A stretch of DNA of 63,722 bases, the filler included, from Reticulomyxa filosa (taxonomy: Eukaryota > Protista > Foraminifera): NCBI GenBank assembly GCA_000512085.1. It is 19 parts of 19 records of this genome, joined end to end, with 100 filler letters (N's around TTAATTAATTAA, not from the genome) between each part and the next. Parts side by side here need not be neighbours in the genome. Positions count along the whole stretch, not along the records: positions 1 to 11,032 come from ASPP01005468.1; 18 more parts are not named here. The stretch is one strand, 5' to 3'. Position 1 is the first letter of the stretch. Each line of letters begins with the position of its first letter. Below, one piece after another: positions 1-58,369 of this stretch. The position numbers and the translations under genes are program-made. The notes beneath the pieces were generated by a model, which worked only from the letters and a program-made list of their open reading frames with translations, ran no database searches and was not told the origin of the DNA.

Positions 1-123
1 AAAAAATAAAAAAAAAAAAAAAAAAAAAAATTTTTTTTTTTTTTGGATTAGTCTCTTGTATGCTTACAAGAAGCATACAAGAGTCTGTAACACGTATACA
101 AAAACAACAACACAAAATAATAG

Positions 124-1395
124 ACAAAAAGTCGAATTGGTGAGAAAGCAAGTCAAATTTGTGAGAGAGCATGGGTAGATTTATTAAAAATAGCGGACAA
201 TGATGAATCGGCATTGGAAATATTAGCAAACCTTTTGGAAAATCCTCAATGCGAACATTTTAATTTTGTGAGTAATCTCAACAAGCACAATTGGGAGGGT
301 TGTCTGTACTGCTTTTGCAAGCAATGGAGAAAAGCCAACAAACTTTTGATTAAATTGGCAATGCGCACATTTCCTTACATTTGGAAGTATTTTTTGTTGA
401 AAAAAGAGATCAATATAGGAGAACAAATTTCAAAATTAGAATTGGATTGCACGTGGATGGAGTTGAATGAAGTGGGGCTCATTTCCGTTTGTGCAAATAA
501 GATCAAGTTTGACGTCCCTATATTGCTGTTGTTGAGTCTAGTGCACGAACAGCATGACAATTGTCTACTCATACGACATCTCCCAGCCATTTGGCAATTC
601 ATGAAAGACCCCTCCCCACAGAATATGGAGAAAATGGTGATCTCACTAACAGTGTTACGTGTTAGTGCATATGAGAAGGAGGAGGAGGAGGAGGGAACGT
701 CGCAAAGCTATAACGAAGTGTTCAACGTATGTAACATCCCAGAAAACAGCAAAGACCTTTTAGAGTTACAGGTGATGCCAAAGGAGCTGGAGATTACTCA
801 CCGACATGCAAAGTTTGATACAGAAAAGTCCAGGTTGAAAGGTGAAGATCCGATGTGTTTCACGTTCACTGACGACAATCCAAGTTTCGATGGATTGATT
901 CGTTTGTCCGGAAAGTGGGAGGGACGAGATGTCGCCGTGTGGACCTTTTTGGAAATTAAAAGTATCAATTGGTGTAACATTGTAACTCGTGCCACTGACT
1001 ATGTGAATACAATTGAAGACTTGCAAGCGTTTGGAAAAGACGAGCCATTTGGATCCGACTGGCACGTACCTAACAAAGATTTTGATTTTTCCGATCAAAA
1101 ACAGCAAACTGCTGAAAGTCAAGGGTACAGATTGATGAAAACGAAATCTACACTTGATGGACGGAAAGTATTTCTTGCTGTTCCATTCAGTAGCAAAGCC
1201 AAATCTTCCAAAATCTACTTGTCAAAAGGATTCATTGATGGAGGCTTAAAGAAGTTTATTCAAGTCATACTCTGTGGAATGACAAACTGTAAAATTTCAG
1301 AGCGAGTGAAACAAAATAATCGCCAAATGCATGCACTTTTTGAGTCCAAACATTGTATTTGGTTTTATAACACAAAACCAAGGGGTTTTTTCTGA
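124..1395 (+). CDS. 3' terminal exon of an unknown protein (about 420 aa)
   Basis: The 214..1395 frame is open back to a TAG at 121-123 that follows an A-rich, intron-like tract (probable acceptor): TKSRIGEKASQICERAWVDLLKIADNDESALEILAN... No family recognised. Confidence 0.7.
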   Translation, partial: TKSRIGEKASQICERAWVDLLKIADNDESALEILANLLENPQCEHFNFVSNLNKHNWEGCLYCFCKQWRKANKLLIKLAMRTFPYIWKYFLLKKEINIGEQISKLELDCTWMELNEVGLISVCANKIKFDVPILLLLSLVHEQHDNCLLIRHLPAIWQFMKDPSPQNMEKMVISLTVLRVSAYEKEEEEEGTSQSYNEVFNVCNIPENSKDLLELQVMPKELEITHRHAKFDTEKSRLKGEDPMCFTFTDDNPSFDGLIRLSGKWEGRDVAVWTFLEIKSINWCNIVTRATDYVNTIEDLQAFGKDEPFGSDWHVPNKDFDFSDQKQQTAESQGYRLMKTKSTLDGRKVFLAVPFSSKAKSSKIYLSKGFIDGGLKKFIQVILCGMTNCKISERVKQNNRQMHALFESKHCIWFYNTKPRGFF

Positions 1396-1839
1396 CATTA
1401 CTCTCTCTTTTAAGGCAAAAAAAATAAGCGTATTGGTCTTAATATTTAAAAAAAAAAAACAACTTATATCTATCACATAAACTATCAACTCAATAAACTT
1501 AGAGCCACCTTATATCTTTGAAACTCTACTTAAAAATTCGAAAAAAAATGTACAGTACCAAATTTGATAATATTATAATGTTGACTTAAGTTGAATTGGA
1601 AAAAAAAACATAAATAAAGGCGTATGGACAAACGGAAAGCATCAAAACGTATACAATGTAAGGTCCGAGGAGTCAGCTATCGAGCGATAAAGGAATTTTT
1701 TGAAGTGATTAGTTTAGAAATAATTAATGGATTGTTTTCTTCATTTGTATCTCTTATTTATTATTATTTGAGTGTAGAAAATTCAACGAAGCTGTTCCAA
1801 ACAGCAAAAAGCTTTTTTTTTTGGTTGTATATTCGTATT

Positions 1840-3114
1840 TGGTCTTGTTCCTTTATCAACAAGAATTCAGCAATTGCATCACTTAAAGGTTAGTGTACCA
1901 AATAAGCTATCTTAATCTGTTGTGACTGTCCAGTCCACGATACCTTTTAGGTTTTGGTGGATGTATCGTTAACACTGAATTACAACAGCATTTTTTACAA
2001 AATATAAAATAATTTAATATCTCTTCAATTAGTAAATATCTTCTACTTGAAATTATTGACGACAAAACTCGTAAAGTTCGTCAAAGTGTAGAGAGGAGTG
2101 GGAAGTAATGTTCATTAGCTAAAAAAAAATAAAATAGGTACTTGTTTTGTGCTTTCTTCATCAGAGCCAATTAAACTTCGGTTGAATTTTTACCATGAAA
2201 GCTTAGATGAATGTGATGACAAGCCATATCACAAATTGCAGAGACTATGAATCCTAGAAGATATTAGAAAAGGGGTTGGCATTCTGGTAAAAGATCAATT
2301 GTATCGATTACCACAACAATAATTTTTTCGCTTTGAGCTTGTATTATGGCCTGAAAAGTTGTCATGTGTGATCAATTGAATGAATCGAAAAAATTAGCGT
2401 ACTTTCTGATGTGCTTGTACAATTATTGCAAGAATTAATTGAAAAAGCTTTAGCATGGCGTGCGAAGCAAAAATATATTACAAGTCAGTTCATGAATGCT
2501 GTATCAGCCAAATACACAAGCTCATTCTTCCGAATTGAAGACTTACAGTTTCCATTTGGAAGAAAAAGAGTAATTGAAACAAATATGCTCCATTTTGTGG
2601 CCATTGTATCAAGCGCAAAACAATGGAACTACGAACAAGATCCAAAATTTTTGAAAAAAGCATTAATTTTCAAATCAATGTACTAGGACAAATGTTAGTG
2701 CATGCCAAATTCAAAGAAATAAATGAATCAATTGATTGTTATAAAGCTAATTATTATTTGAACCATAAAGGCTTAGACAGTTTAATGCTAGAAGTGCAAG
2801 CTCAAATATAACGCTATATTTTTGCAATGAAAAAAATATCATGTGCTATTTGGAGTCAGTTATTAGTCCGTGCATGAGCTGTCGATTGTGTTCAGAGTTC
2901 AGAGCTATTGGAAATACGTAGAAACTTACTTGTTATCCATGAATAGAAAAATATATTTGCGGCAGAGCTAGAAACACATGGCAGGACCAATTTGAGTACT
3001 ATTGTTGATCGACCTGATCTGCGTAAAGATTGGTTAAACAAGTGCAAAGAAATTAAAGCTATAATTCACAATAGTATACAAAAATTGAAAATCGAAGCAA
3101 AAAAAACAAAATAA
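1840..3114 (+). pseudogene. Degraded coding sequence, possibly dynamin/Mx-like middle plus GED region
   Basis: Protein-like segments in shifting frames with stops: GLVPLSTRIQQLHHLKV, EDIRKGVGILVKDQLYRLPQQ*FF, LMLEVQAQI*RYIFAMKK, AAELETHGRTNLSTIVDRPDLRKDWLNKCKEIKAIIHNSIQKL. The last resembles the helical pattern of a dynamin GED. The family call is weak. Confidence 0.3.
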
Positions 3115-3823
3115 ATATTTCCTTTGATGTTTCGAAATAGCATAAATTATTTGCATTTAAAATTATTCAATGAAAAGAATTACATAATGGACATACTTCA
3201 ATGGAAAATGATTATTTTTGTGTATTAGTTTGATGCTATTATTAATGTCACCTATATGGCAAAGAGTTTTTATTAATTTTGTTCGTAATAAAAGAGATTA
3301 CAATGTAATTGACTGGTTTTTTCATTCAACTATGTACATTTTTTTCATTAACCAATAAAGAATACCATAGAAAAAAAGGTACATTAATTCTGTATCAAGT
3401 TTATTGACTAGTTTTTGGAAAAGAAGAAGTAGTTTGTATTTTATTTAAGACGTGAATAATAAGTATACCTTCACTTTTATCTTTCCACAAAAACAAAAAA
3501 AGACATTAATCCAAAGTTCAAATTCGTGTTTCGTTTTTCAAAAGGCTATTCACGCTTTTTATTTTTTCAAGGAAAGTTAAAACTACTCAACACTAATAGC
3601 ATGGATAATCAAATACAACACAAAAATATCGCAAAAGACAAATTAAACAAAGCCGACATAAAATTACTTCAATTTCCATTCAAAATTTAATGAAAAGCAA
3701 CAAAAACAGCAATGAAAGCATTTCGTTATCTTTTAATAAAAATGCTAAACATTAATGATAAAACAAACAAAAAAATATCAAATCGCTTCACACACAACAA
3801 CGCTATGCATCCAAATTTAAAAC

Positions 3824-3931
3824 AAAAGCAAAGGAAGGAAAAAGCGAAAAAAAAAAGGATTAAATCAGGCGGCGCCTTCAGGCGCCGCCCGAACTAACCC
3901 TTTCTTTTTGCTTTTGTCTTCCTTTGCTTTT
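3824..3931. repeat. Long imperfect palindrome/hairpin with GC-rich apex
   Basis: GGCGGCGCC(3868-76)-TTCA-GGCGCCGCC(3881-89) is a perfect 9-bp stem. Outer AAAAGCAAAGGAAG(3824-37)/CTTCCTTTGCTTTT(3918-31) is a perfect 14 bp. The arms between are largely complementary. Confidence 0.9.
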
Positions 3932-4254
3932 TTTTATTTTTTCTATTACGGTGCGTTTTTGTTGACCAGACAGTAACAATACTTTTTAGCAGCATACTCA
4001 AATATGACAGCATCTAATGAAAAACTAATGTGATTTAGGGCAAGAGTAAGACTTGGGCTACATGATCATGTGGTCATAAGAATATGTATACATATATGCA
4101 AATATATACGTATTCTTTTTCATCAATCCCCCTACTTATTTCTTGAAAAGAGAAAGTTTTTTTAAATGATTAAATATATATTATTATTATAAATTATTTC
4201 TACCAAGACATAATCATAATAAATATATGCATATATTTGTTAATATTATTATCA

Positions 4255-4500
4255 TTGAAGTTGATCGAATCTTTCACAATGGTACGCACATGCTTGTGCA
4301 ATGAGGTATATTGCGCTTAAAGTGGAGAAATGGAAACTCTTCCACGGAAATGGATCAGCCTTTGGTTGCTGAACAGGTGTATCAAATCAATGTCGACATT
4401 AAAATGATGAACTATATTTTAATTGCAAACACAAAATTCGATTGAGCATTTCTTCCAATAATTGGTCGATGTTTTTTGTGAATTGGAACAATGACAAACT
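4255..4500 (+). pseudogene. CocE/NonD-family (PepX_C-type) hydrolase C-terminal domain fragment
   Basis: KLI/IFHNGTHMLVQ*GILRLKWRNG...PLVAEQVYQINVDIKMMNYI.../HKIRLSISSNNWSMFFVNWNN matches the CocE C-terminal pattern (DGIxRxxxR, PxxxYxxxIDx, HxIRLxISS). One stop and two frameshifts. Confidence 0.6.
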
Positions 4501-4663
4501 GGTTATCGATGGAAGCTATGCTTTAAAAAACATTGAACGAAGCTTTAAAAATTTTTTAAACAGCAAGTAAAAAAAAATAAATTAAAGTTTGCATTCAATA
4601 TATACTTTAATTACATTTTTCAAACAAAAACACTTTTCATTTATTATTTGATAAGAAAGTAAA

Positions 4664-5110
4664 TTATCCCCAAATACGAATGTGACCATTTGAACAATAA
4701 CATAAATTAATTACATACTTATCATTTTTTTTTCTTTTTTAGCTTAATGAATTTAAGACAGGATATTTTGTATCCTTTATCATTTCCTTTGATTGCATAT
4801 AATTCTTTCTTAATAAATCAGATATCCCAAAAACAAATTTCATTATCAAACGAAAGCGAAGATATAACATTTGAATTACCAATAAAATCCTTTATTACAA
4901 ATGGTGAATATTCAACACATAATATTCGCTCTTTATGTTTATATGATATAACAGCTCCAGTTTGTTCTGACTTATCTGTATATTGTGATTGTAGTATATT
5001 TGTAGATATTAGATCTACTATATTTACTTGAGATATAAATGTTTATTATTGAATTCAACTAATATCAAATTGGTCCAACATATCCATATGAATAACGTAT
5101 TTATCAATCA
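4664..5110 (-). pseudogene. WD40-repeat family pseudogene, 3' part
   Basis: The reverse strand reads ...CVEYSPFVIKDFIGNSNVISSLSFDNEICFWDI*...NDKYVINLCYCSNGHIRIWG*, homologous to the C-termini of the WD40 genes at 48364-49700 and 54151-54834. Stops and frameshifts are present. Confidence 0.85.
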
Positions 5111-7466
5111 TCAGAATCATCTGAACTTAGTGTAAAATATAGTAATTTTTCTTTTTGCTGTTCTGATGGTAATGCTGATGATAGTAATGATAATAATGAT
5201 AATCTTGACTAGAATAGTGACGATGTCTGTTGTGATGTAGTTGTTGTGATAATTGATATTGTTGTAAAGATAATGGTTTCAAATCAATATTTTGTTTATC
5301 AATGATTTCATCATCTAACTATAAGGGTGAATACCTTAAGTTGGACTTCTTCAGATGCTGATAAAGATAATTGAGAATATTTTATAGAATCATCATTATC
5401 ATTTTTATCATCATTATCATCTTTTCCATAATCACTATCTTTGTCATTTTCTTTTTTGTATCATTTTCTTGTTTTTCGTCTTTATTGATAAATTAGGACG
5501 TCAAACATCTGAAGAAAATACTTTTTTGTAATACTCACAAACAAGAAAATAAAATAAATATATTTATATTATAATAAATATATATTACGTACAATATACA
5601 AATCTTTATAATCACTGGAAACATTCATCTTGAAGTCCTAATAAAGAAATTGCTTTTTACAATGTAATAAAACAGCAATAAGATATAACACTTGAATATG
5701 TATTATACAAAATTTCAAACATGTAAAATATTATTATAAACTATACTTGATTTTTTCTTTTTTTAATATCAATAAATTAAAATTATAACTTGTAATCACA
5801 ACAATTTATATATAATAGCATTGTGAAAAAATAAAATTCAGGATCCAGTTATTCTATTATTTGCCGAATCCTTAAAATCAATTTTCTCTTTAATTAGATT
5901 TTTTCTTCATTATTTGCAGAAAACCAAATTTGAACGTTTAAAAATATATGATTTTTTAATTATTTAAAATCTAATTATCATGATATAGAAAAGTGAAATT
6001 TAGCACAAATAACATTTAAATAGAAATGTTGTGATCATTTGCAAATTGTTAAATTTGTTGTATTGAATATGTAGTAGTATCAAGATTAAAAATATTTATC
6101 ACAGTTAATGCACTTTTAGTTTTATTTGATCTTTTCATTGATTGTTTTATATTAAGTTCTTTTTTTCATAAGCTTTATGAATCCTTGATTTCACTTTTAT
6201 ATAATTATGCAAATTAATAGAAAAATGATTTAAAGTATTCCACAAATTATACAATATCAATATAAATATTTTTCTAAATATCACTAAAAGAAAAAAACTA
6301 TATGTATACATTATCTAAATCCTGAGTTTTTATATATAGTAAAATTTATAACGAAAAGTTTTTTAAGGATTTGTACAACTTGTTATAATGACTTATGCTT
6401 TTGATAATTAAAAATGTCAAATTATTTATTCAACAAATACTAGCGTGAAATACAATCAAATAATATGGATTCTAACATAGCAAGACTAATATTGCGCATT
6501 AGATCAAGTTGATATTTATAATAACAGTAATTTTAAAAAATTATTCGAAAAATTACATTAAGTTGAAAAGAAAATTGAACGAATAAAACATATCTTATGA
6601 TGATAATTGGTTTTATCAATGAAAAATCAATTATAATCATAAGATATGTTTTAGGCGTTCAGTTTTCTTTGCAACCTACTGTACTTATGTTGCAATATAC
6701 AAAAAATTTTTTTAGGTTAAAAAATAGTGATAAAAAATTTGGACGTTCTGATAGTGATAAAAGTGTGATATCAATTAGCCAACGTTTTTTAGATTAAAGA
6801 GCAATGTATGCTATCAAGCAATTTAAAAAAGAATCACACATCATTCGACTCGACTGGTTCTTTATCTCAATTGTGATGAGACATCTGTACCTTTACTTTT
6901 TATTATTTCGTTTTTTTTTATTTTTGGCTATGTTTTTTAAATGAAAAATGACAGAAAGTAAAACACAAAAAAAATTGGAAAAAAGTTATTTAACACATTG
7001 GGAGGTTAGCCAACTATGATAGTGATATAATTTTACTTTAGTCATATTTAAAATTTTCACCAAGGATATTCTTTGCGATTTTACACCATCTCCGACCATT
7101 TTTGAGGCTTAGTATTTTCATTTCAACATACAATAATTCCATTTTACTTTGTTTTTTTATTGAAAATAAGCATATTAATTTGTTAATATCAATATGCAAA
7201 ATACTATATACAAAACTATCAATTTGTTTTAACAAAGTTTTCAATGATATTTACAATGTGTCAAATTAGTACAGATTCGCATTACAATTGTCACTATCTT
7301 ATTAGTTCAATCTTGTTCTATTTACTTATTACAAAAAAATTTAGTTTTTTATCATCCAATAAAATATATAATTCAATATCATTTATACATCATCATTATC
7401 ATGTATGTATTTGTATAATAAAAAATAAATATTTTTTTTACTTTTTTTGTAATTTGCTAAATCTTA

Positions 7467-8298
7467 GTGATACTTTTGGAAATTGAAGAAAATGATTTTA
7501 AACAAAGTGAAGTGCAAAGTATCGTACAAAGTGATTTACAAAGCGACAAACAAGATGATGTACTAAGTACATACAAAGTGACGGATAAAATGATAAACAA
7601 ATTGATTATCAACAAAATAAAAATAAAAAATTTGACAATGAATATATTGACAATGATGAAAGTATTAATGAATAAATTGACGAACAAAGTAAAAAAAAGT
7701 CAAAAAATAAAATTTTCGACTGCAAGCAAAACTTTATTTTTAACATATCTATAATGTACGTTACAACTGAAGTGCTTGAAACATTGGAAAACAAACTTAC
7801 AATCAATAAATATTTGATCGCTATGGAAACTCATATACAAAAAGGACGACACCTGCATTACTATATTAATTGTAAAAATAAAGTGGATATAAGTCTATTA
7901 CATAGATTAGCCTTGAATATACTTAAGAGATAGTTTACGTATATCAAAGTATAAAAAGACTGTCAAAAAGTAATACTGAAATAACTAGAAATTATAAATT
8001 CAAAACTGTAAATGGAATATCAAATTGGAACAGATCAAAACATGTGTTATGGTTACATGGAAAAACTAACACTAGACGAGACTACAGCAATTAACGTAAA
8101 ACATGGACACGTTGAAATAAAAAAGGACTTCCAAGAGTATTTACAAGCAATAATACTATTTTCAAAAATGACGCATCAATAAAAAGAAGAATACTGTACA
8201 TTAAAATAGATGAATGTATAAGAGATATTAGTGGAAAAGAATCAGAAAATAGCAACAATTGTGAAGTTACCGATTCAGTTTTTGAAAATGAAGACTAA
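7467..8298 (+). mobile_element. rep: Decayed CRESS-DNA (geminivirus/plasmid-like) Rep: HUH endonuclease plus SF3 helicase; endogenous viral or plasmid element
   Basis: Motifs occur in the correct order across frameshifts: motif I KTLFLTYL*C (FLTY 7737-48); motif II YLIAMETHIQKGRHLHYYI (HLH 7850-58); start of Walker A WNRSKHVLWLHGKTNT (8026-8073); LDETTAINVKHGHVEIKK/GLPRVFTSN (motif C, 8072-8151); Arg-finger-like ASIKRR; stop at 8296-98. Motif III, the GKT of Walker A and Walker B appear deleted. Confidence 0.88.
7503..7612 (+). repeat. Degenerate 12-bp tandem repeat (CAAAGTGANNNN) encoding Q-S-D-x tetrads at the Rep N-terminus
   Basis: caaagtgaagtg caaagtatcgta caaagtgattta caaagcgacaaa caagatgatgta ... 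caaagtgacgga taaaatgataaa caaattgattat. Confidence 0.75.
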
Positions 8299-8304
8299 AT
8301 TTAA

Positions 8305-8720
8305 TGGAATAAAAGAAAAAATACAAATAACTTTGAGCTAATAACTATTTTTTTCTTAAGTTTTGCATTAAGAGAATGTGAATATGTCTGACTACTCATT
8401 GCTTTGTCATTTACTGACAATGGCAAAAATAGGCTATTGCTTTTCAACAACTTCAAATTTAGAAATTTGTCCAACAGTAACATCCAAATTTTATTCGATC
8501 ATATAAATCACAATCGTAGCTTTATTCATAAAATTAAAGAAATTAATTGGGCTTACACATTAAGTGTTGACTAATCAAGGATAAAAGCAACTTCAAAATA
8601 CTGAATGCAAAGTCCATCCTAATGTTGGAAGACGACAATTATTTACAAAATAATCTTTTTAAGCCCAATCGTGGTTTACAAAGACCACATAATTTATTGG
8701 CACAATTAGAAATGTCATAG
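8305..8720 (+). pseudogene. Second decayed ORF directly downstream of Rep, function unknown
   Basis: Frame 1 reads WNKRKNTNNFELITIFFLSFALRECEYV*LLIALSFTDNGKNRLLLFNNFKFRNLSNSNIQILFDHINHNRSFIHKIKEINWAYTLSV. It continues in frame 3 from 8571 as LIKDKSNFKILNAKSILMLEDDNYLQNNLFKPNRGLQRPHNLLAQLEMS*. This is unusually open for such AT-rich DNA. Confidence 0.4.
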
Positions 8721-8745
8721 TATTAATATTTTTTTTTCACTTAAG

Positions 8746-8886
8746 TTAATTAAAATTTTTTTAAAAAAATCTACGAATCAAATGAAAGATTAAAATTTTT
8801 GAAAAATTGTAAAAACTTAATAAAAAACCAAAATGATATTTAAAAACTACGCGATTCGTAGATATTTTTTTTTTAATTTTGATTAA
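8746..8886. repeat. Inverted repeat downstream of the Rep cassette
   Basis: ATCTACGAATC(8769-79)/GATTCGTAGAT(8853-63) is a perfect 11 bp, extended by A/T tracts and TTAATTAAAATT/AATTTTGATTAA. A nested mini-hairpin CTACG-CGATT-CGTAG lies at 8847-8861. Confidence 0.7.
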
Positions 8887-10944
8887 ATGTTGTTTTTTCA
8901 TGGAGAAACAAAATCATCTCTATAATGTGGCAACTTTCTTTTTTATCATACTGTATTTCAATTATTTTTTTCATTATTCATAACAGTGTTTAAAAAAGGA
9001 AAAAGGCAAATATCATAATTTAAAACAAGTTTGATCAAACCTGATCATAAAAGAGCGACAGACTTTGAGACTTTGGCTTCTTTGTCAACAATACGAAATT
9101 GCCGTTTGTGGAAATATACAATGCTTATTTCGACTTGATAATAATCTACAATCAACATACATATTTAATTAGATATCTATATTGCCTTCCAGTAAAATCA
9201 CATCATTTAAACTTGCCCACAAAATGAGAAACAGTAATTGTTTTAAAAAATATGTAAAAATATGTTACAAAATCCGAAATTAAGTTTTTTCAGTAAGAAA
9301 CTGAAAGAAGGCAAGAACGATTTCCTTTGAACTGAACTTCCCAAAAACTCATTAATTGTGACTAGTGTTTGAAAAATATTGAACATTTTTTTAATTGATA
9401 CGAATTTCTTACTTCTCAAAAGTATCAATAACAAACTTCAGTTTTATGGCAAATTATTTCTCACATATCTTAAATGATAAAATTCCAAAAAATAAATTAA
9501 ACAACAATCCAAATTATAAATTGAATAAATTCAAAAATGAAAATTAAAACAAAATTTTATTCACACATATTCAATCAAAAAGTTTAAATATTTTCATGCT
9601 TAAAAAAAAATTTTGAATAAGTATTAGTTTTCCACGAATAAACACAAGAATGTTCAATACCTCCAAACTTTGTCACAATTCTCTTTTATCGCCATACTAT
9701 AATGAAAATAAGTATCATTTCCATTTTTTTGATACAAACGTTTCGTCAAGCTGCAAAAGGAAAGTTTCTCAAAGCTGGCAAAAAATATTGTTTTGGATAA
9801 TTCTGGGAATAAGTATATATAATCGTAAAACAATACATCTCAAGTGCATCACATAGCAAGTTAAATAAATCATATTCACAAATTTTTTAATTTAGGTTAT
9901 TCATTGTTCTTTATTTTTTTTAATCATATGGTGAACATTCACAAACGAACACTGTATCATTGGTCCAAAAATATGTATTGTTTCATGTGATAATACATCT
10001 GTCTTTATGTTTGATCAATTACAATTATGATGATTTTAGATAAAATAGATTGTATTATCTTATCAAAAGTATTTATTCCCTTTTATAAAAAACCAAATAT
10101 CATTAAAACAACATTCCACATTTTAACACAATTAAATTGAAAAATAGAACCAAACACGGTTAAATACTAACACAAATTAACCAATGAAATAATTTGATTA
10201 ATTAACATGAATTGTTTTATAATTGCATTAGTCTTTTGAATTCTAGTTTGATTGATTTTTGTGTCCTTGCTAAATTAGATTTCAACCACACATAGATTCA
10301 ACTCTTTCCAATTATTTGGAAAATTTTAATAATAGAATACACAAAAGAATCATTGAATCCATATTTAATGGCTTTGGGTCAAGGAATACAATATGCAAAA
10401 GAGTGATGAATATATCAAAAATATTAAAAATGAATGGTAAAGATGTATTATTACATAATATTTACAAAAGATAGAAAGAGGCAATTCATTTGTGAATACT
10501 ATTTTATAAAGTAATAGAGAATAGTTATTTGATTGGTTTAAATCAACAAATTTATTTTAATGAAAAGAAAAATATAGATGAATTAATATTAAATGATAAA
10601 AATTTAACAATATTTATAAACATATGGTGATACTTTTCTTACTAGCTTCTTCAATTCTTCTTTCTTCCAATTCAACTATTTCCATTTAATTCTTTTTTAT
10701 TTTTCGTATATTTCTGATTCCTTTTATTTTTATTCAAATTTGTGTTTTGTTCAACTCTTGTTGCTTAAATAAATTAATTCGTTTTTCCACTTAAGTTGCA
10801 ATAAATTTGAATTATTTCAAATTTAAAAATAAGTAAAATCAAAAATTCATAAGATTACAAATTTATAATGAAATTCATTTAATAATTTTAAATCGAGTTT
10901 CTGAAGCTTCAAAAGTAAAAAAAAAAGGTTACTTCATCATTATC

Positions 10945-11032
10945 ATGCTTCAACAAACGTTCCCTAAGATAGATGAAGAGATCATTTCAGAGGCATTGAA
11001 ATGGCTTAATCAAGATGTTGAAAAGACAAAAA
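10945..11032 (+). CDS. CUE-like domain, 5' fragment cut by contig end
   Basis: MLQQTFPKIDEEIISEALKWLNQDVEKTK fits the CUE pattern LxxxFPxxDxxxIxxxLxxxxxxVE. Confidence 0.5.
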
Positions 11033-14059: not shown

Positions 14060-14934
14060 ACCTCCACCCAATGAAGTTGTATAATATTTCCAACTTTAAA
14101 TTAATAGATAGCCCCTTCTAAGTCGTGAACAAAAATAATTTTCTATTATCCACACGCTCCGTGCATCGATAAAAGCATCTTCCATTGCTTTCAACCAATA
14201 CTTGCATAAAATAAATATAATTTTACATTCATGTAAAACAGTTGGCTAATTTTTTAATATTCATTTTATCATTGGTTCCAAAAAGAAAGTATAGCTTAAT
14301 GCAAATTAACCAGCGTTTTTTGTTTTTAAGATTGTTTATTTATTTCTTTTTTATTTCAATTTTTACTTTATTTAAAAAGATAAGTGAAAAACAAGCTGAT
14401 AAGTATGATATTAGTAATATATTTAATTGTTACTTTTTGTTAAATGTTATTCTTTTTTTTCCTATCAACCAAATCAATGTGAAGATTGGTACTTTGGTAA
14501 AACTTTCAACATAATGAAGTAGACGCTTGACTCTTATATTTTTTTGGATAGAGAAATTGATTAGTTCAAATCCTTCAACTTTTTAAACTGTTCTAAAAAA
14601 GCGGTAATTTAGAAAAAAAGAATACTATTGTACGAGATACAGTATGTTGCAAAGAAAACTGAACGCCTAAAACGATATNNNNNNNNNNNNNNNNNNNNNN
14701 NNNNNNNNNNNNNNNNNNNNNNTTAATTAATTAANNNNNNNNNNNNNNNNNNNNNNNNNNNNNNNNNNNNNNNNNNNNTTTTTATTAATTATTAAAAAAA
14801 GAAAATAAAATAGATCACACATAAATGTATATATATATATATATATATATTTCTATATATTTGTATTGAATACTATGCATATATCACGTCACATATACAT
14901 ATATGTATAAAATGGGTGAATGTGTTGCATGTAG

Positions 14935-48363: not shown

Positions 48364-49700
48364 ATGACAACTTTTGCCAATGAGAAGCAGACGTCAATAC
48401 AATTAGCATTGGTAAGCTTTAGTACAAGCTTTCAGAAAATCTATTGTTTTTTTAATGTTTTGTTTATCGTATGTAAATTGTGATTCAAACAGTCTGAAGA
48501 AGAAAAGATTCAAGTAATTATACGACATTGGATTCGAACATTGCAAATCAAATTTGGATGGATTAATGAGTTTGACAAACTCATTGTCAACTATGTTAGT
48601 CTGTTTGTCTTTTTTCTTTTAAAATATTTAAATGTTTATTTAACATAGATATATAATCTATTTATGTTTGATACATTTCAAGCATCATCAAAATTAATCA
48701 ATTCATTCATTGGACATCCTAGTTGTGTATATAGTATTGATTATTCAACATTTGATGATTGTCAATTCATTTGTTCTGGATCAAATGATAAAACAGTTAG
48801 TGTATGGGATATTGATAACAACAAGCAAATTCAATCATTCAACGGACATTTCCGTTCTGTAACTTGTGTAAAATTTTCATCATATCATTATCGTAATCAT
48901 CATCAAAATGTTATTTTCTCTTCATCACATGATAAAAATATTCGTTCTTGGGATTTCAAACATAATAAACCATTACAAATATTAAATGGACATACAGACT
49001 TTATCAGTTGTATTAAATTTTCATCATTTAATGGTGGTAGATATTTATGTTCTGCATCATATGACAGAACAATTCGTTTATGGGATGTTGAAACATCAAA
49101 ACAATTACATGTTTTTAATGGACATGAATGTGGCATTTGGTCTATTGATTTTTCATCATTACAAAGAAATTATAACAATGATAATAATATTGGTGTAATT
49201 GGTGGAAATGGATATAAAATTTGTTCTGGATCAGGTGATAATACCATTCGAATATGGGATATTGAAACATATAAACAATGTAATGTATTTAAAGGACATG
49301 AAGATATTGTGATGAGTGTAAAATATGGATCAAATGAATTATTGAATACAATATTATCCTGATCATGTGATAGAAGTATTTGTTTGTGGGATATTCGATC
49401 TGGTCAACCAATATTAAAGTTGAATGGATATAAAGAGCAATATTATCCGTTGAATATTCGCCATTTGTAATAAAGAATTTTTTTGGTAATTCAAATGTAG
49501 TATATTCATTATCATCATCTAATGAAATTTGTTTTTGGGACATTCGATTACTTAATAAAGAATTGCATTCCATCAAAGGATATTCTAACGATGAAATATT
49601 ATGTCTTACATTTATGGAATTGAAAAAGAAATAGAATGACAAATATGTTATGAATTTATGCTATGGTTCAAAAAAAGGTATAATTTGTATTTGGGAATAA
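48364..49700 (+). pseudogene. WD40-repeat family gene with premature stop
   Basis: MTTFANEKQ...IQVIIRHWIRTLQIKFGWINEFDKLIVNY leader, then WD40 repeats. TGA replaces Gly at 49360 (ILS*SCD), with a further frameshift and stop. Ends LCYGSKKGIICIWE*. Confidence 0.9.
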
Positions 49701-50370
49701 TTTACTTTTTGTTTGGAAATTTTGATTAAATAAAATAAGTTGATATTATATTATTGAATGTAAGCATTTAATTATTTGTTTCATTTTACTTTTGTTAGTT
49801 AAAAAAGCTTCGTTCAATGTTTTTTAAAGAATTTCGATATTCAGAATATTAATGATACACAAAAAGAACTTCTACCACAAAACGGATGACAATCTGCAAA
49901 CCTTGCTGTATTGTTATTCCGATAATAATGTTGGTAATTTTTGAGATTTTTTTCGCAGTTAATGCTATAGAATAATTGCTATGTTGGCGTTTATTGCTTT
50001 TGACAATTATTGGACAATACTATTTTTTAAAGGTCTTCATTTGACTTACAAATGTTCAGTCTAAAATTAAAAAAAAATCATTGTTAAACAAACAAATTTT
50101 CAATACAAACCAAAACATACAAAAAATTGAAACTTTTTTTACAATCCAATATTTTGTTCACGATTAGCAGCCTATTTACAACCCAGTTTCATTTTGTGCT
50201 AGGCAAATATTCACTTTCAAAACATGAACANNNNNNNNNNNNNNNNNNNNNNNNNNNNNNNNNNNNNNNNNNNNTTAATTAATTAANNNNNNNNNNNNNN
50301 NNNNNNNNNNNNNNNNNNNNNNNNNNNNNNTTTTTTTTTTTTTTTTTTTTTTTGCGTCTCTTCATAAAGT

Positions 50371-51846: not shown

Positions 51847-52868
51847 ATGGTATGTTTTTCCCATATCTATCCTTTTTTTTTTCGAATTAAGCAGAATTGT
51901 GTTGAACTTAAAAACAACATTAGCCGCCAAAAAAAGAACAAAAGACAAAAGAACAAAAATTAGCCGCAGCCTTGGCAGGAGGTCGTCGAACGAAGAAAAG
52001 AGTTATACAAATGACAAACAGATTAAAACAAATCTAAACAAATAAAATAAAAACAGACAAAACATAACAAACAAAAAAATCGCACTTGTGAAATATTTTT
52101 ATGCGTTTACGCGTGGCCAAAAAAAAAAGATAAAACAAAAAGTAAAATAATTAAAAACGATACAGAAATGGGCAAAAGGAAAAGTCCGAGAAAAGAAGGA
52201 CAACAGCGTGATATTTTTCGAAGAGTCGTATGAATCGGCAATGAAAGAAGTCCCAAAAATGAAAACAGTGACAGTAGCAACAGTAAGTGAAAAGTTGAAA
52301 ATTACAGGATCTTTGGCACGACGATTCATTTTGAAATTAGCCAAAGATGGTCACCTTGTGAAGAAATATGATTCACAACGAATGCTGATTTACACAAAAC
52401 TGCCCAAATCAAAAGAGGAAGAAAAAGAAACAGGTAAAGGCGGTAAAGGTGGTAAAGGTGGTAAAGGTGGTAAAGGTGGCAAAGATAAAGGCAAAGACAA
52501 AGACAATGACACAGAAATGAAAGAAAAGGGGGCTAAAGGTGACAAGGGAGGCAAAGATAAGGAAACCAAAGGAGGAAAAGATAAGGAAGGCAAGGGAGGA
52601 AAAGATAAAGAAGCAAAGGGAGGAAAGGACAAAGAGGCAAAAGGAGGAAAAGATAAGGAAGCAAAAGGAGGAAAAGATAAGGAGACAAAAGGAGGAAAGG
52701 AAAAAGAAAGCAAAGGTGGTGAAGAAAAAAAGGCGAAACAAGGCAAGGAGAAAGGAGAAAAAGAAGCCAAGTCTAAAGAGCAAAAAGGAGGAGCCCAAGA
52801 GAAGGCACCAAAAGCTCCTAAAGAACCCAAAGAGCCTAAAGAACCCAAAGACCTAAAGAACCCAAAGA
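51847..52868 (+). CDS. RPS25: 40S ribosomal protein eS25 with long repetitive C-terminal extension (3' truncated)
   Basis: Exons: ATG 51847-49; 51924-52001 (PPKKEQKTKEQKLAAALAGGRRTKKR); 52166 onward (KWAKGKVREK...EVPKMKTVTVATVSEKLKITGSLARR...IYTK). Both introns are GT-AG and in frame. Confidence 0.95.
52430..52868 (+). repeat. Coding tandem repeats GGK (9 bp), GGKDKE[A/T/G]K (24 bp) and PKE (9 bp)
   Basis: Read directly in the RPS25 tail. Confidence 0.9.
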
Positions 52869-54150: not shown

Positions 54151-54834
54151 TCTGGTGATACTACTATTCGTTTATGGGATGTTGAAACATCAAAGTCATT
54201 GTATGGTTTCAATGGGCATAGAGATACTGTCAGATGTGTAGATATTTCACCATTGCAAAGTAGCAGCAACAATAAAAGCAATAGTGTTGGTGTGATTGGT
54301 GGAAATGGATATACAATTTGTTCTGGATCAAGAGATAAAACCATTCGAATATGGGACATTGAAACATCCAAACCGTCCATTATACTTAATGGACATGAAA
54401 ATTGGATTATGAGTGTAAAATATGGATCAAATAAATTAGTGAATACAATATTATCTGGATCATCTGATCAAAGTGTTCGTTTGTGGGATATTCGATCTGG
54501 TCAACAAACTCAAGTGTTCAACGGACATAAAAATTGTGTGAAGGCTGTCGAATATTCACCATTTGTAGTGAAGAGTAATAGTGGAGTTAGTGATAGTTCA
54601 AATGTAATATGTTCTGGATCGTTTGATAATACAATTCGCTTTTGGGATGTTCGATTAAATAAGGGTGAATTGTATGCGATAAAAGAAAATTATAAAGGAC
54701 ATGTTGCAATATATTGTCTTAAATTTGTATCATTGAAAGGAAAAGAAAGTGACAACAAGAACACAAAAAACAGTACTTTTAGTTCAAATTTGTGCTATGG
54801 TTCTTCAGACGGTTTCATTCGTGTTTGGGGATAA
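54151..54834 (+). CDS. WD40-repeat family protein, 3' part
   Basis: The frame is open from the contig start: SGDTTIRLWD...GVIGGNGYTICSGS...LCYGSSDGFIRVWG*. Confidence 0.92.
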   Translation, partial: SGDTTIRLWDVETSKSLYGFNGHRDTVRCVDISPLQSSSNNKSNSVGVIGGNGYTICSGSRDKTIRIWDIETSKPSIILNGHENWIMSVKYGSNKLVNTILSGSSDQSVRLWDIRSGQQTQVFNGHKNCVKAVEYSPFVVKSNSGVSDSSNVICSGSFDNTIRFWDVRLNKGELYAIKENYKGHVAIYCLKFVSLKGKESDNKNTKNSTFSSNLCYGSSDGFIRVWG

Positions 54835-55108
54835 TTCATGTTTTCAATAAGAAAATGAAAGTATTTTTGAATTGAAAATAGTTTAAACAAAATAAAATTT
54901 TTGATTTAAGATGTTAGAGTAACTCGGTTCTGTTGTTTAATTATACCTTTGTGTGAACTTTCAGCTATTTTTGAAATTAGAAAAAAGAGAAACAAGACCA
55001 AGTCCTGAATTTTTAATTATTGCAATCAATGATCAAAAAAAGAGTACAACAAAAAATATGTGCGCATGTACACGTGTATATATTTAAAACAAGTCAACAA
55101 AGGAAAAA

Positions 55109-57332: not shown

Positions 57333-58369
57333 ATTTTCAATGATTTTTTATGATATTCAATTGCTCTATCATATTCATCTTTATCTTCATAAACAAGTCC
57401 CAAATTGTTGTATAAACCAGCGATATCAATGTGATCAGGCCCCAATTTATTTAATTTAATTTTCAATGATTTTTTATAATATTCAATTGCTCTATCATAT
57501 TCTCCTTTACTTTGATAAACAATTCCCAAATTGTTGTATGAACCAGCAACATCAATGTGATCAGGTCCCAATTTATTTAATTCAAGTTTCAATGATTTTT
57601 CATGATATTCAATTGCTATATCATATTCCCCTTTTTTTTCATAAACAGTTCCCAAATTGTTGTATGAACTAACGACATCAATGTGGTCAGGTCCCAATTT
57701 ATTTAATTTAATTTTTAATGATTTTTCGTGATATTCAATTGCTTTATCATATTCTCCTTTATTTTCATAAACATTTCCCAAATTGTTATATGAAGTAGCA
57801 ACACTAATGTGATCATGCATCAATTTACTTAATTTGATTTTTAATGATTTTTTATGATATTCAATTGCTCTATCATATTCCCCTTTAGTGTTATAAACAT
57901 TTCCCAAACTATTATATGAAGTAGCAATATCAATGTGATCATTTCCCAATGTATTCAAACTAATTTTCAAATCTTTTTCATAATATTCAATTGCTTTATC
58001 ATATTCTCCTTTATCTTTATATGTTCTACCTAACCAAAAATAAGATACTGCAACACTATTATGATAATCATGTAATGTTTGCAATTTAAAACAAAGTATA
58101 AAACGAAATAATTGAATTGCCTCATTCATTTTTGAGATATCTAATGAATTCCTTCCCAATTTCATTAAATTTTCTATATCAATAGGCCAAGAACAAGTAA
58201 AAACATGAGAACGGAAGTGACAACGAATAACAGATGGATTAGTAGGAATAAGTTGTTGAGTAATATGACAATTTCCAAATCCATCAATAATACAATCAAC
58301 AGCATAAACACACCCATCAATTGTGATATTATCAAATATAACTTTTTTTGAATGGAATGAAGAAACAGA
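57333..58369 (-). CDS. TPR array protein (42-aa kinesin-light-chain-like repeats), internal fragment
   Basis: The whole contig is one open frame: ...ITIDGCVYAVDCIIDG... then six DHIDVAxSYNNLGxVYxxKGEYDxAIEYHxKSLKIKLNKLGP units. Confidence 0.95.

What the first reader, a model, noticed from the sequence alone, without database searches (positions are those of the whole stretch)
7467..8298. Hidden endogenous CRESS-type rolling-circle Rep (HUH + SF3 helicase) in a probable foraminiferan genome
Seen: five Rep landmarks in the correct order, split across three frames so the ORF track misses them: FLTY, ExH...GxHLH, LWLHGKTNT, INVKHG...GLPRVFTSN and ASIKRR. Known: this architecture defines Reps of CRESS-DNA viruses and related plasmids. 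FLTY plus xHLH point to the gemini/genomo-like clade, which also includes phytoplasma and red-algal plasmid Reps. Inference: this is a germline fossil of an ssDNA virus, plasmid or Rep-driven transposon that replicated in this rhizarian lineage, which would link a host to an otherwise orphan CRESS group. It sits among host pseudogenes on the same contig, which argues against contamination. I cannot confirm whether it has been reported.
Basis: partly seen in the sequence, partly recalled or inferred. Interest (0 to 1): 0.9.

Follow-up and report, generated by a model that had tools for sequence, protein, structure and literature searches.

The report
Dead viral-type replication gene in foraminiferan
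This is a broken copy of a rolling-circle replication gene of the kind used by small circular single-stranded DNA viruses, lying among host-type pseudogenes; its intact sister gene is already on record from the foraminiferan Reticulomyxa, and the pair likely descends from a small, possibly capsid-less DNA element that lived in this protist lineage.

Summary
Window 7476-8298 is a decayed CRESS-type Rep gene, collinear from start to stop with one intact 516-aa protein, 'rep [Reticulomyxa filosa]' ETO15557.1 (E 4e-36; 138 of 180 aligned residues identical). It has at least six frameshifts, two stops, and two deletions that remove the catalytic-tyrosine motif, the Walker A GKT and Walker B, so it is dead. 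It sits on an 11-kb gap-free contig with a WD40 pseudogene and a MITE-like repeat that recur on other contigs; no reads were available to confirm the join. It keeps the arginine finger, so it is not Gemini/Genomo/phytoplasma type; the intact paralog is already filed as 'P. pulchra-like' (within CRESSV6) in Kazlauskas 2019 supplements. New here: a second, host-flanked copy; ten unnamed environmental Reps as nearest kin; a 192-aa N-terminal extension like those of fungal Smittium Reps; and contigs of near kin mostly too short for a capsid. Best reading: a host-resident, probably capsid-less rolling-circle element that integrated and decayed. An ordinary endogenous virus plus duplication is a close rival. 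New member of a known kind.

The parts
7476..8298 (+). Decayed Rep gene, 823 nt against 1551 nt for the intact paralog; start region to ancestral stop codon
   Evidence: Collinear blocks against P0002/ETO15557.1; E 4e-36
7476..7710 (+). Remnant of the low-complexity (Q/S/D-rich) N-terminal extension, shortened and frameshifted, stop at 7673-7675
   Evidence: Frameshift-aware score 87 vs max 80 in 40 shuffled queries and max 38 in 76 other windows; moderate support because of low complexity
7711..7766 (+). RCR motif I region (NFRLQAK in frame 1, FLTY in frame 3, stop at 7752-7754)
7769..7918 (+). HUH nuclease core with motif II (ETHIQKGRHLH 7826-7858)
   Evidence: 70% identity to P0002 222-271
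7918..7920 (+). Junction of deletion 1: P0002 residues 272-337 absent (second half of the GRS-like stretch and motif III with the catalytic Tyr)
   Evidence: motif table
7920..8073 (+). Linker/oligomerisation region and first half of Walker A (LWLHGKTNT 8047-8073)
   Evidence: 64% identity to P0002 334-389
8073..8075 (+). Junction of deletion 2: P0002 residues 390-441 absent (Walker A GKT and Walker B)
8075..8298 (+). Helicase C-terminal part: INVKHG (motif B'), motif C FTSN, arginine finger IKRR, acidic tail, stop 8296-8298
   Evidence: 83% and 76% identity to P0002 442-459 and 458-516
4518..4936 (-). Context, not part of the element: WD40-family pseudogene remnant
   Evidence: 74% nt identity over 429 nt to 49430-49832 and 69% to 54546-54878 on other contigs, whose ORFs are WD40 by Pfam
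6551..6686 (.). Context, no link to the Rep shown: 137-nt imperfect palindrome, MITE-like
   Evidence: 85% self-complementary; one arm recurs at 14638-14678 (95% over 41 nt) on another contig

Best explanation
Window 7476-8298 is a broken copy of a CRESS-type Rep gene (HUH nuclease plus SF3 helicase) whose intact sister is recorded from Reticulomyxa filosa, and it was likely left in the chromosome by a host-resident, probably capsid-less rolling-circle element descended from CRESSV6-type viruses. How the living element would work (from established knowledge of CRESS Reps, not tested here): Rep nicks its origin with the motif III tyrosine, stays covalently bound, the SF3 helicase unwinds, host polymerase copies the circle, and Rep seals the product; now and then a copy is joined into host DNA by Rep or by repair. 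Shown: homology, collinearity, loss of the catalytic motifs, host-type neighbours, tree position. Inferred: that the source lacked a capsid and lived in the host for a long time (the 192-aa extension was gained and kept open while all catalytic motifs stayed intact), that this copy integrated or was duplicated after that, and that it then decayed neutrally.
For: One hit, P0002 = ETO15557.1, Gemini_AL1 E 8e-18, all Rep motifs intact. Fossil + P0002 sisters 100/100 on a 0.52 stem, end branches 0.20 vs 0.07. N-terminal extension of 80 aa or more in 5 of 6 eukaryote-genome Reps (P0002 and 4 of 5 Smittium) vs 5 of 154 others; 192 open codons at this base composition has P about 2e-8; its remnant is in the fossil. 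Longest contigs of 20 of 26 nearer environmental Reps leave under 750 nt beside Rep vs 4 of 31 in a farther clade; Logan only, 18 of 20 vs 2 of 22 contigs under 1.8 kb; P0002's own contig leaves 681 nt. L080, a 1978-nt circle grouping with the Smittium Reps, has no second ORF over 61 aa from an ATG. No capsid remnant on the 11-kb contig (0 credible hits from 1487 ORFs; 23 capsid-candidate profiles, best E 0.044 inside the Rep region). The published cluster of P0002 holds capsid-less red-algal plasmids (PMC6668415).
Against: The best-scoring relative with DNA, L155, is a 2060-nt circle with a geminivirus-like capsid, and 59 of 61 circular loci in the tree have a second ORF of 150 aa or more. 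No DNA of the 26 nearer Reps could be fetched, so short contigs may be fragments: P0101 and P0201 of one cluster lie on 2198 and 1793 nt, and 4 of the 11 closest have 910-1196 nt spare. Missing capsid remnants mean little: 37 of 38 Blastocystis EVEs were Rep-like (PMC9615429 passage). The extension count rests on about two independent lineages and five environmental Reps also have one. No origin stem-loop and no element ends were found. No episome is shown.
Confidence: 0.42

Rival explanations
1. Ordinary endogenous viral element: an encapsidated CRESSV6-type virus of a foraminiferan integrated its Rep gene once or twice; host duplication gave an intact and a dead copy.
For: L155 and most related circles are Rep + capsid viruses; EVEs are mostly Rep only; the contig is full of duplicated host pseudogenes.
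Against: A 192-aa open extension shared by both copies is rare in environmental Reps (5 of 154); nearer kin mostly on contigs too short for a capsid.
Confidence: 0.3
2. Rep-helicase transposon: a chromosomal copy-and-paste element that uses the CRESS Rep as transposase, amplified independently in foraminiferans and in Smittium fungi.
For: At least 2 copies tied to this host and 8 Smittium accessions in the published cluster; short contigs are what collapsed repeats give; long extensions in both hosts; one clade of the two host groups is rejected, p-AU 0.023 (group chosen after seeing the first tree).
Against: No element ends, terminal hairpins tied to the gene or second copy in the window; only one intact R. 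filosa protein found in three searches; Replitrons, the known eukaryotic Y1-Rep transposons, lack a helicase.
Confidence: 0.13
3. Domesticated host gene: the intact Rep has a cellular job (for example in the genome rearrangements of foraminiferans or in antiviral interference) and this locus is its pseudogene.
For: Intact motifs on a long stem, host-like low-complexity extension, short end branch of the intact copy.
Against: No orthologue named from another foraminiferan; the intact copy lies on a 2232-nt contig without known host neighbours; no expression data.
Confidence: 0.1
4. Contamination or chimeric assembly: viral or food-organism DNA joined to host sequence.
For: No reads could be laid; fragmented assembly of short contigs.
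Against: A gene without catalytic residues cannot be a live virus; contig 1-11032 has no gap; base composition is continuous across the flanks; WD40 remnant and MITE-like arm recur on other contigs.
Confidence: 0.05

Closest known systems
Reticulomyxa filosa 'rep' ETO15557.1 / X6MQ48 (P0002)
   Same: Collinear over the whole length, same stop position, 138 of 180 aligned residues identical; sisters in both trees.
   Different: The window copy is 823 nt vs 1551 nt, with frameshifts, stops and two deletions of catalytic motifs; it has host-type flanks, while P0002's contig is only 2232 nt.
'P. pulchra-like' Rep cluster within CRESSV6 (Kazlauskas 2019, PMC6668415; CRESSV6 is now, as recalled and not checked, family Geplanaviridae)
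   Same: P0002 is a listed member with 3 red-algal plasmid Reps and 8 Smittium proteins; GRS-like stretch plus kept arginine finger.
   Different: In my tree the foraminiferan pair groups with ten unnamed environmental Reps, not with Smittium. No labelled CRESSV6 or P. pulchra sequence was in my trees.
Geminiviridae / Genomoviridae / phytoplasma pCRESS9 Reps
   Same: Gemini_AL1 nuclease domain; geminivirus-type Rep nuclease structures are the best PDB matches; pCRESS9 Reps match the nuclease part at 30-42%.
   Different: Arginine finger kept rather than replaced by Asn; pCRESS9 matches cover only 12-19% of P0002 and fall far off in the tree.
Protist CRESS EVEs (Entamoeba, Giardia, Blastocystis, Histomonas; PMC9615429 passages)
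   Same: Rep-only remnants in a protist genome used to infer the host of an unclassified lineage.
   Different: Different Rep lineage and host group; linkage there was confirmed by PCR or long reads, here not.
Replitrons and Helitrons
   Same: HUH Rep in eukaryotic chromosomes.
   Different: Replitrons have no helicase, Helitrons a Y2 Rep with SF1 helicase; this Rep is Y1 + SF3 and no transposon ends were found.

Membership tests
CRESS-type Rep (HUH + SF3) | Motifs I, II, III, Walker A, B, motif C, Arg finger in order | tested here: met
   All present in the intact paralog; the window copy keeps I, II, half of A, B', C and Arg finger and has lost III, the GKT and B by deletion
CRESS-type Rep (HUH + SF3) | Functional open reading frame | tested here: not met
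   At least six frame changes between motif I and the stop, stops at 7673-7675 and 7752-7754
P. pulchra-like / CRESSV6 | Clusters with P. pulchra plasmid Reps | tested here: inconclusive
   Published for the intact paralog; the fossil is its sister; no P. pulchra or labelled CRESSV6 row in my trees
P. pulchra-like / CRESSV6 | GRS-like motif with kept arginine finger | tested here: met
   RLDLDGFHGNYQGCRS and SIKRR in P0002; SIKRR at 8173-8190; criterion
Geminiviridae / Genomoviridae / pCRESS9 | Arginine finger replaced by Asn | tested here: not met
   IKRR kept
CRESS virus (encapsidated) | Capsid gene linked to Rep | tested here: inconclusive
   None found on contig 1-11032, but sensitivity for decayed, divergent capsids is low; L155 has one
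CRESS virus (encapsidated) | Origin stem-loop with nonanucleotide | tested here: not met
   0 sites with a stem of 7 bp or more in 1-11032; the same scan found sites in 8 of 21 related loci
CRESS virus or plasmid | Circular extrachromosomal ssDNA form | not testable with these tools
   No reads listed, no genome held
Endogenous element | Flanked by host sequence on a gap-free contig | tested here: met
   (assembly level only)
Endogenous element | Junctions confirmed by reads or PCR | not testable with these tools
Replitron | Y1 Rep without fused helicase | tested here: not met
   SF3 helicase motifs present
Rep-driven transposon | Many copies with shared defined ends | tested here: inconclusive
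   One copy in the window, no ends; whole genome not available

The most novel reading that the evidence does not exclude
Foraminiferans host a family of capsid-less Rep + SF3-helicase replicons (nuclear plasmids or a new class of rolling-circle transposons) that escaped packaging, grew a long N-terminal extension in parallel with the Smittium elements, and correspond to an unnamed environmental clade of 1.3-1.8 kb Rep-only circles; this locus is a dead insertion of one.
Probability: 0.3. Interest if true: 0.78.

Novelty: new member of a known kind. Interest (0 to 1): 0.45.

Why it matters
Most CRESS lineages have no known host. The intact R. filosa Rep sat on a 2.2-kb contig that could be dismissed as contamination; a decayed sister among host pseudogenes is the evidence that the lineage really entered a foraminiferan genome, and it points to protist hosts for ten unnamed environmental Reps at about 50% identity. 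If the short contigs and the long extension reflect loss of the capsid, this would be a further virus-to-plasmid or virus-to-transposon transition in eukaryotes, testable by rolling-circle amplification and genome-wide copy counts.

Tried and rejected
Whole-genome search for more copies: no genome held. Sequencing runs: none was listed, so no read test. Pfam on the separate pieces and read-through: no Rep family. Plasmid tblastn with the read-through: 2 hits at E 2, chance. A scan for genomovirus references with a phytoplasma Rep gave 4 weak unrelated loci, so no geminivirus or genomovirus row is in the trees. Second FLTY at 9457-9468: no profile support, taken as chance. Capsid remnant: none. 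Targeted hypermutation as described for Bigelowiella natans (T/A>C/G at TpA; abstract): not seen; of 28 unambiguous single-base differences 18 go towards A/T, 9 away, 1 neutral, unpolarised. Deletions as spliced introns: cannot be tested without the intact gene's DNA; left open. Link of the 6551-6686 palindrome or the 3820-3914 hairpin to the Rep: no partner end found. ESM Atlas for ORF 124-1392: not answered. Earlier findings of this scan: nothing in 3 look-ups. Zhao, Lavington and Duffy 2021 (J Evol Biol 34:1901), the survey most likely to list this EVE, is not held.

Full report
Setting. The window is a chain of short contigs joined by N-TTAATTAATTAA-N spacers; the finding lies in the first, 1-11032, which has no gap and 27% GC. 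Other contigs encode a Rab-type GTPase, WD40 proteins, GH35 and ribosomal S25, so the source is a eukaryote. No whole genome is held and no sequencing run was listed.

Observation. Pfam does not recognise the separate pieces, but a read-through of 7927-8295 with X at two stops found one protein among 44 candidates: P0002, 'rep [Reticulomyxa filosa]', ETO15557.1, 516 aa, E 4e-36. A 60-aa piece found the same protein at E 7e-18 among 1.84 billion representatives; the only other hit was weak. P0002 carries Gemini_AL1 at E 8e-18 and has motifs I (NLFLTYPQC), II (HLHCY), III (YCTKE), Walker A (GKTNTGKT), B (IVFDDM), C (FTSN) and the arginine finger. A profile made from 12 environmental Reps without P0002 hits only 7695-8262 in the window and gives 67.9 bits against at most 4.8 in 100 shuffles.

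Anatomy. The window copy is collinear with the whole of P0002, from the Q/S/D-rich N-terminus (about 7476) to the same stop (8296-8298), but is 823 nt against 1551. In five ungapped blocks 138 of 180 residues are identical. There are at least six frame changes between motif I and the stop, stops at 7673-7675 and 7752-7754, and two deletions: P0002 272-337 (with motif III and its tyrosine) and 390-441 (the Walker A GKT and Walker B). It can neither nick nor hydrolyse ATP (inference from the established roles of these motifs). Differences lean towards A/T (18 of 28 unambiguous, unpolarised), which fits neutral decay and not the T/A>C/G signature reported for integrated viruses of Bigelowiella natans (abstract and one passage seen).

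Flanks. A WD40 pseudogene remnant at 4518-4936 is 74% identical over 429 nt to a stretch of another contig; a 137-nt palindrome at 6551-6686 has an arm that recurs at 14638-14678. GC runs 20-30% across gene and flanks without a step. No capsid remnant was found with 1487 non-Rep ORFs from related loci (4 weak hits, none credible) or 23 capsid-candidate profiles; no nonamer stem-loop; no element ends. Integration is therefore supported at assembly level only.

Relatives. P0002's core finds eight unnamed environmental Reps at 47-53% identity over 96% or more; an alignment search adds more and the Smittium proteins. In a FastTree tree of 193 rows (225 full-length rows, 33 near-duplicates dropped, plus the fossil) the fossil and P0002 are sisters (100) inside a 12-row clade (98) with ten environmental Reps. 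An IQ-TREE tree of 48 chosen rows repeats this (100/100; 12-row clade 93/84; bootstrap not settled; deeper forks open). Holding the foraminiferan pair with the five Smittium rows is rejected at p-AU 0.023, with the caveat that the group was chosen after the first tree. No labelled CRESSV6, P. pulchra, geminivirus or genomovirus row was available. The best-scoring relative with DNA, L155, is a 2060-nt circle (54-nt terminal overlap) with Rep and an ambisense 294-aa ORF that the ESM Atlas places among cressdnavirus capsids (0.96; Gemini_coat in 22% of the first cluster); its closeness is supported in the FastTree tree (95) but unresolved in the IQ-TREE tree. Of 61 circular loci in the tree, 59 have a second ORF of 150 aa or more; L080 and L151 do not.

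Two patterns bear on the kind of element. First, 5 of 6 Reps from eukaryote genome assemblies (P0002 and 4 of 5 Smittium; the partial P0112 left out) have an N-terminal extension of 80 aa or more, against 5 of 154 others; these are about two independent lineages, so the Fisher p of 2e-6 overstates it. The extension is real coding sequence (192 open codons, P about 2e-8 by chance) and its remnant is in the fossil (score 87 vs at most 80 in 40 shuffles and 38 in 76 other windows), so it predates the split of the two copies. Second, the longest contigs of 20 of 26 nearer environmental Reps leave under 750 nt beside the gene, against 4 of 31 in a farther clade; within Logan alone 18 of 20 vs 2 of 22 contigs are under 1.8 kb; the smallest second ORF among the 59 circles was 212 aa. 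Completeness of those contigs is unknown, one cluster shows 2198 and 1793 nt, and no DNA of these could be fetched.

Mechanism. Best reading (0.42): a host-resident, probably capsid-less rolling-circle element derived from CRESSV6-type viruses; intact Rep would nick, unwind and reseal small circles using host polymerase; one copy entered the chromosome and decayed. Rivals: ordinary EVE of an encapsidated virus plus duplication (0.30), Rep-helicase transposon (0.13), domesticated gene with pseudogene (0.10), contamination or chimera (0.05). That the locus is a real decayed Rep of this lineage in host-type DNA I put at about 0.95.

What is known. Kazlauskas 2019 (PMC6668415; main-text passages and supplement passages of files 6, 7, 9 seen; files 13-14 not searched) lists ETO15557.1 in the 12-member P. 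pulchra-like cluster, places that cluster within CRESSV6, and notes that it keeps the arginine finger which gemini-, genomoviruses and pCRESS9 replace; the main text does not name Reticulomyxa. The Replitron preprint (10.1101/2022.12.15.520654; passages) names the R. filosa Rep in a figure legend; the PNAS version's main text does not. Kinsella 2022 (passages and 1 supplement) and Kinsella 2023 (2 supplements only) do not mention it. Nine searches (listings seen) found no paper on foraminiferan CRESS EVEs or on a decayed second copy, but Zhao et al. 2021 was not readable and may list it; bioRxiv supplements are closed. The family name Geplanaviridae for CRESSV6 and the Tc1/mariner-like look of the palindrome's ends are recalled, not from calls.

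Verdict. Real, well supported, a new member of a known kind. The intact gene is already catalogued; the added value is the host-flanked dead copy, the link to an unnamed environmental clade, and a testable hint of capsid loss. Interest 0.45.

Noticed in passing
window 1-63722: The window is 19 contig pieces joined by N44-TTAATTAATTAA-N44 spacers; only 1-11032 is physically linked to the finding.
   Followed up: yes
window 6551-6686 and 14638-14678: 137-nt imperfect palindrome with TA|CAGT-like ends, probably a MITE of a DNA transposon; one arm recurs at the end of another contig.
   Followed up: partly
window 3820-3914: Palindromic stretch with a GC-rich hairpin core (GGCGGCGCC-TTCA-GGCGCCGCC) in AT-rich DNA, single in the window; may be the end of another mobile element.
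   Followed up: partly
window 9457-9468: A second FLTY in a motif-I-like context, without profile support; taken as chance.
   Followed up: yes
window 124-1395: 423-aa open frame with higher GC and no Pfam match; followed by broken coding-like pieces to about 3100. Unidentified; the Atlas look-up did not complete.
   Followed up: partly
window 52151-52868: Ribosomal protein S25 with a long C-terminal run of 8-aa K/E/G repeats.
   Followed up: no
window 57333-58369: Tandem 126-nt (42-aa) TPR-like repeats, 68-90% alike.
   Followed up: no
L080 (2077 nt) and L151: Circular contigs with a Rep but no second ORF above about 66 aa; L080 groups with the Smittium Reps: candidate capsid-less replicons.
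   Followed up: partly
L001 239-1159, L004 393-1208, L002 933-1754, L008 543-1289, L156 888-1502: Long (205-307 aa) open frames overprinted on the Rep gene in another frame in several related viruses.
   Followed up: no
P0107, P0115, P0140, P0202 (Smittium): Fungal genome Reps with 92-178 aa low-complexity N-terminal extensions, on contigs up to 27 kb; P0140 has degenerate nuclease motifs.
   Followed up: partly
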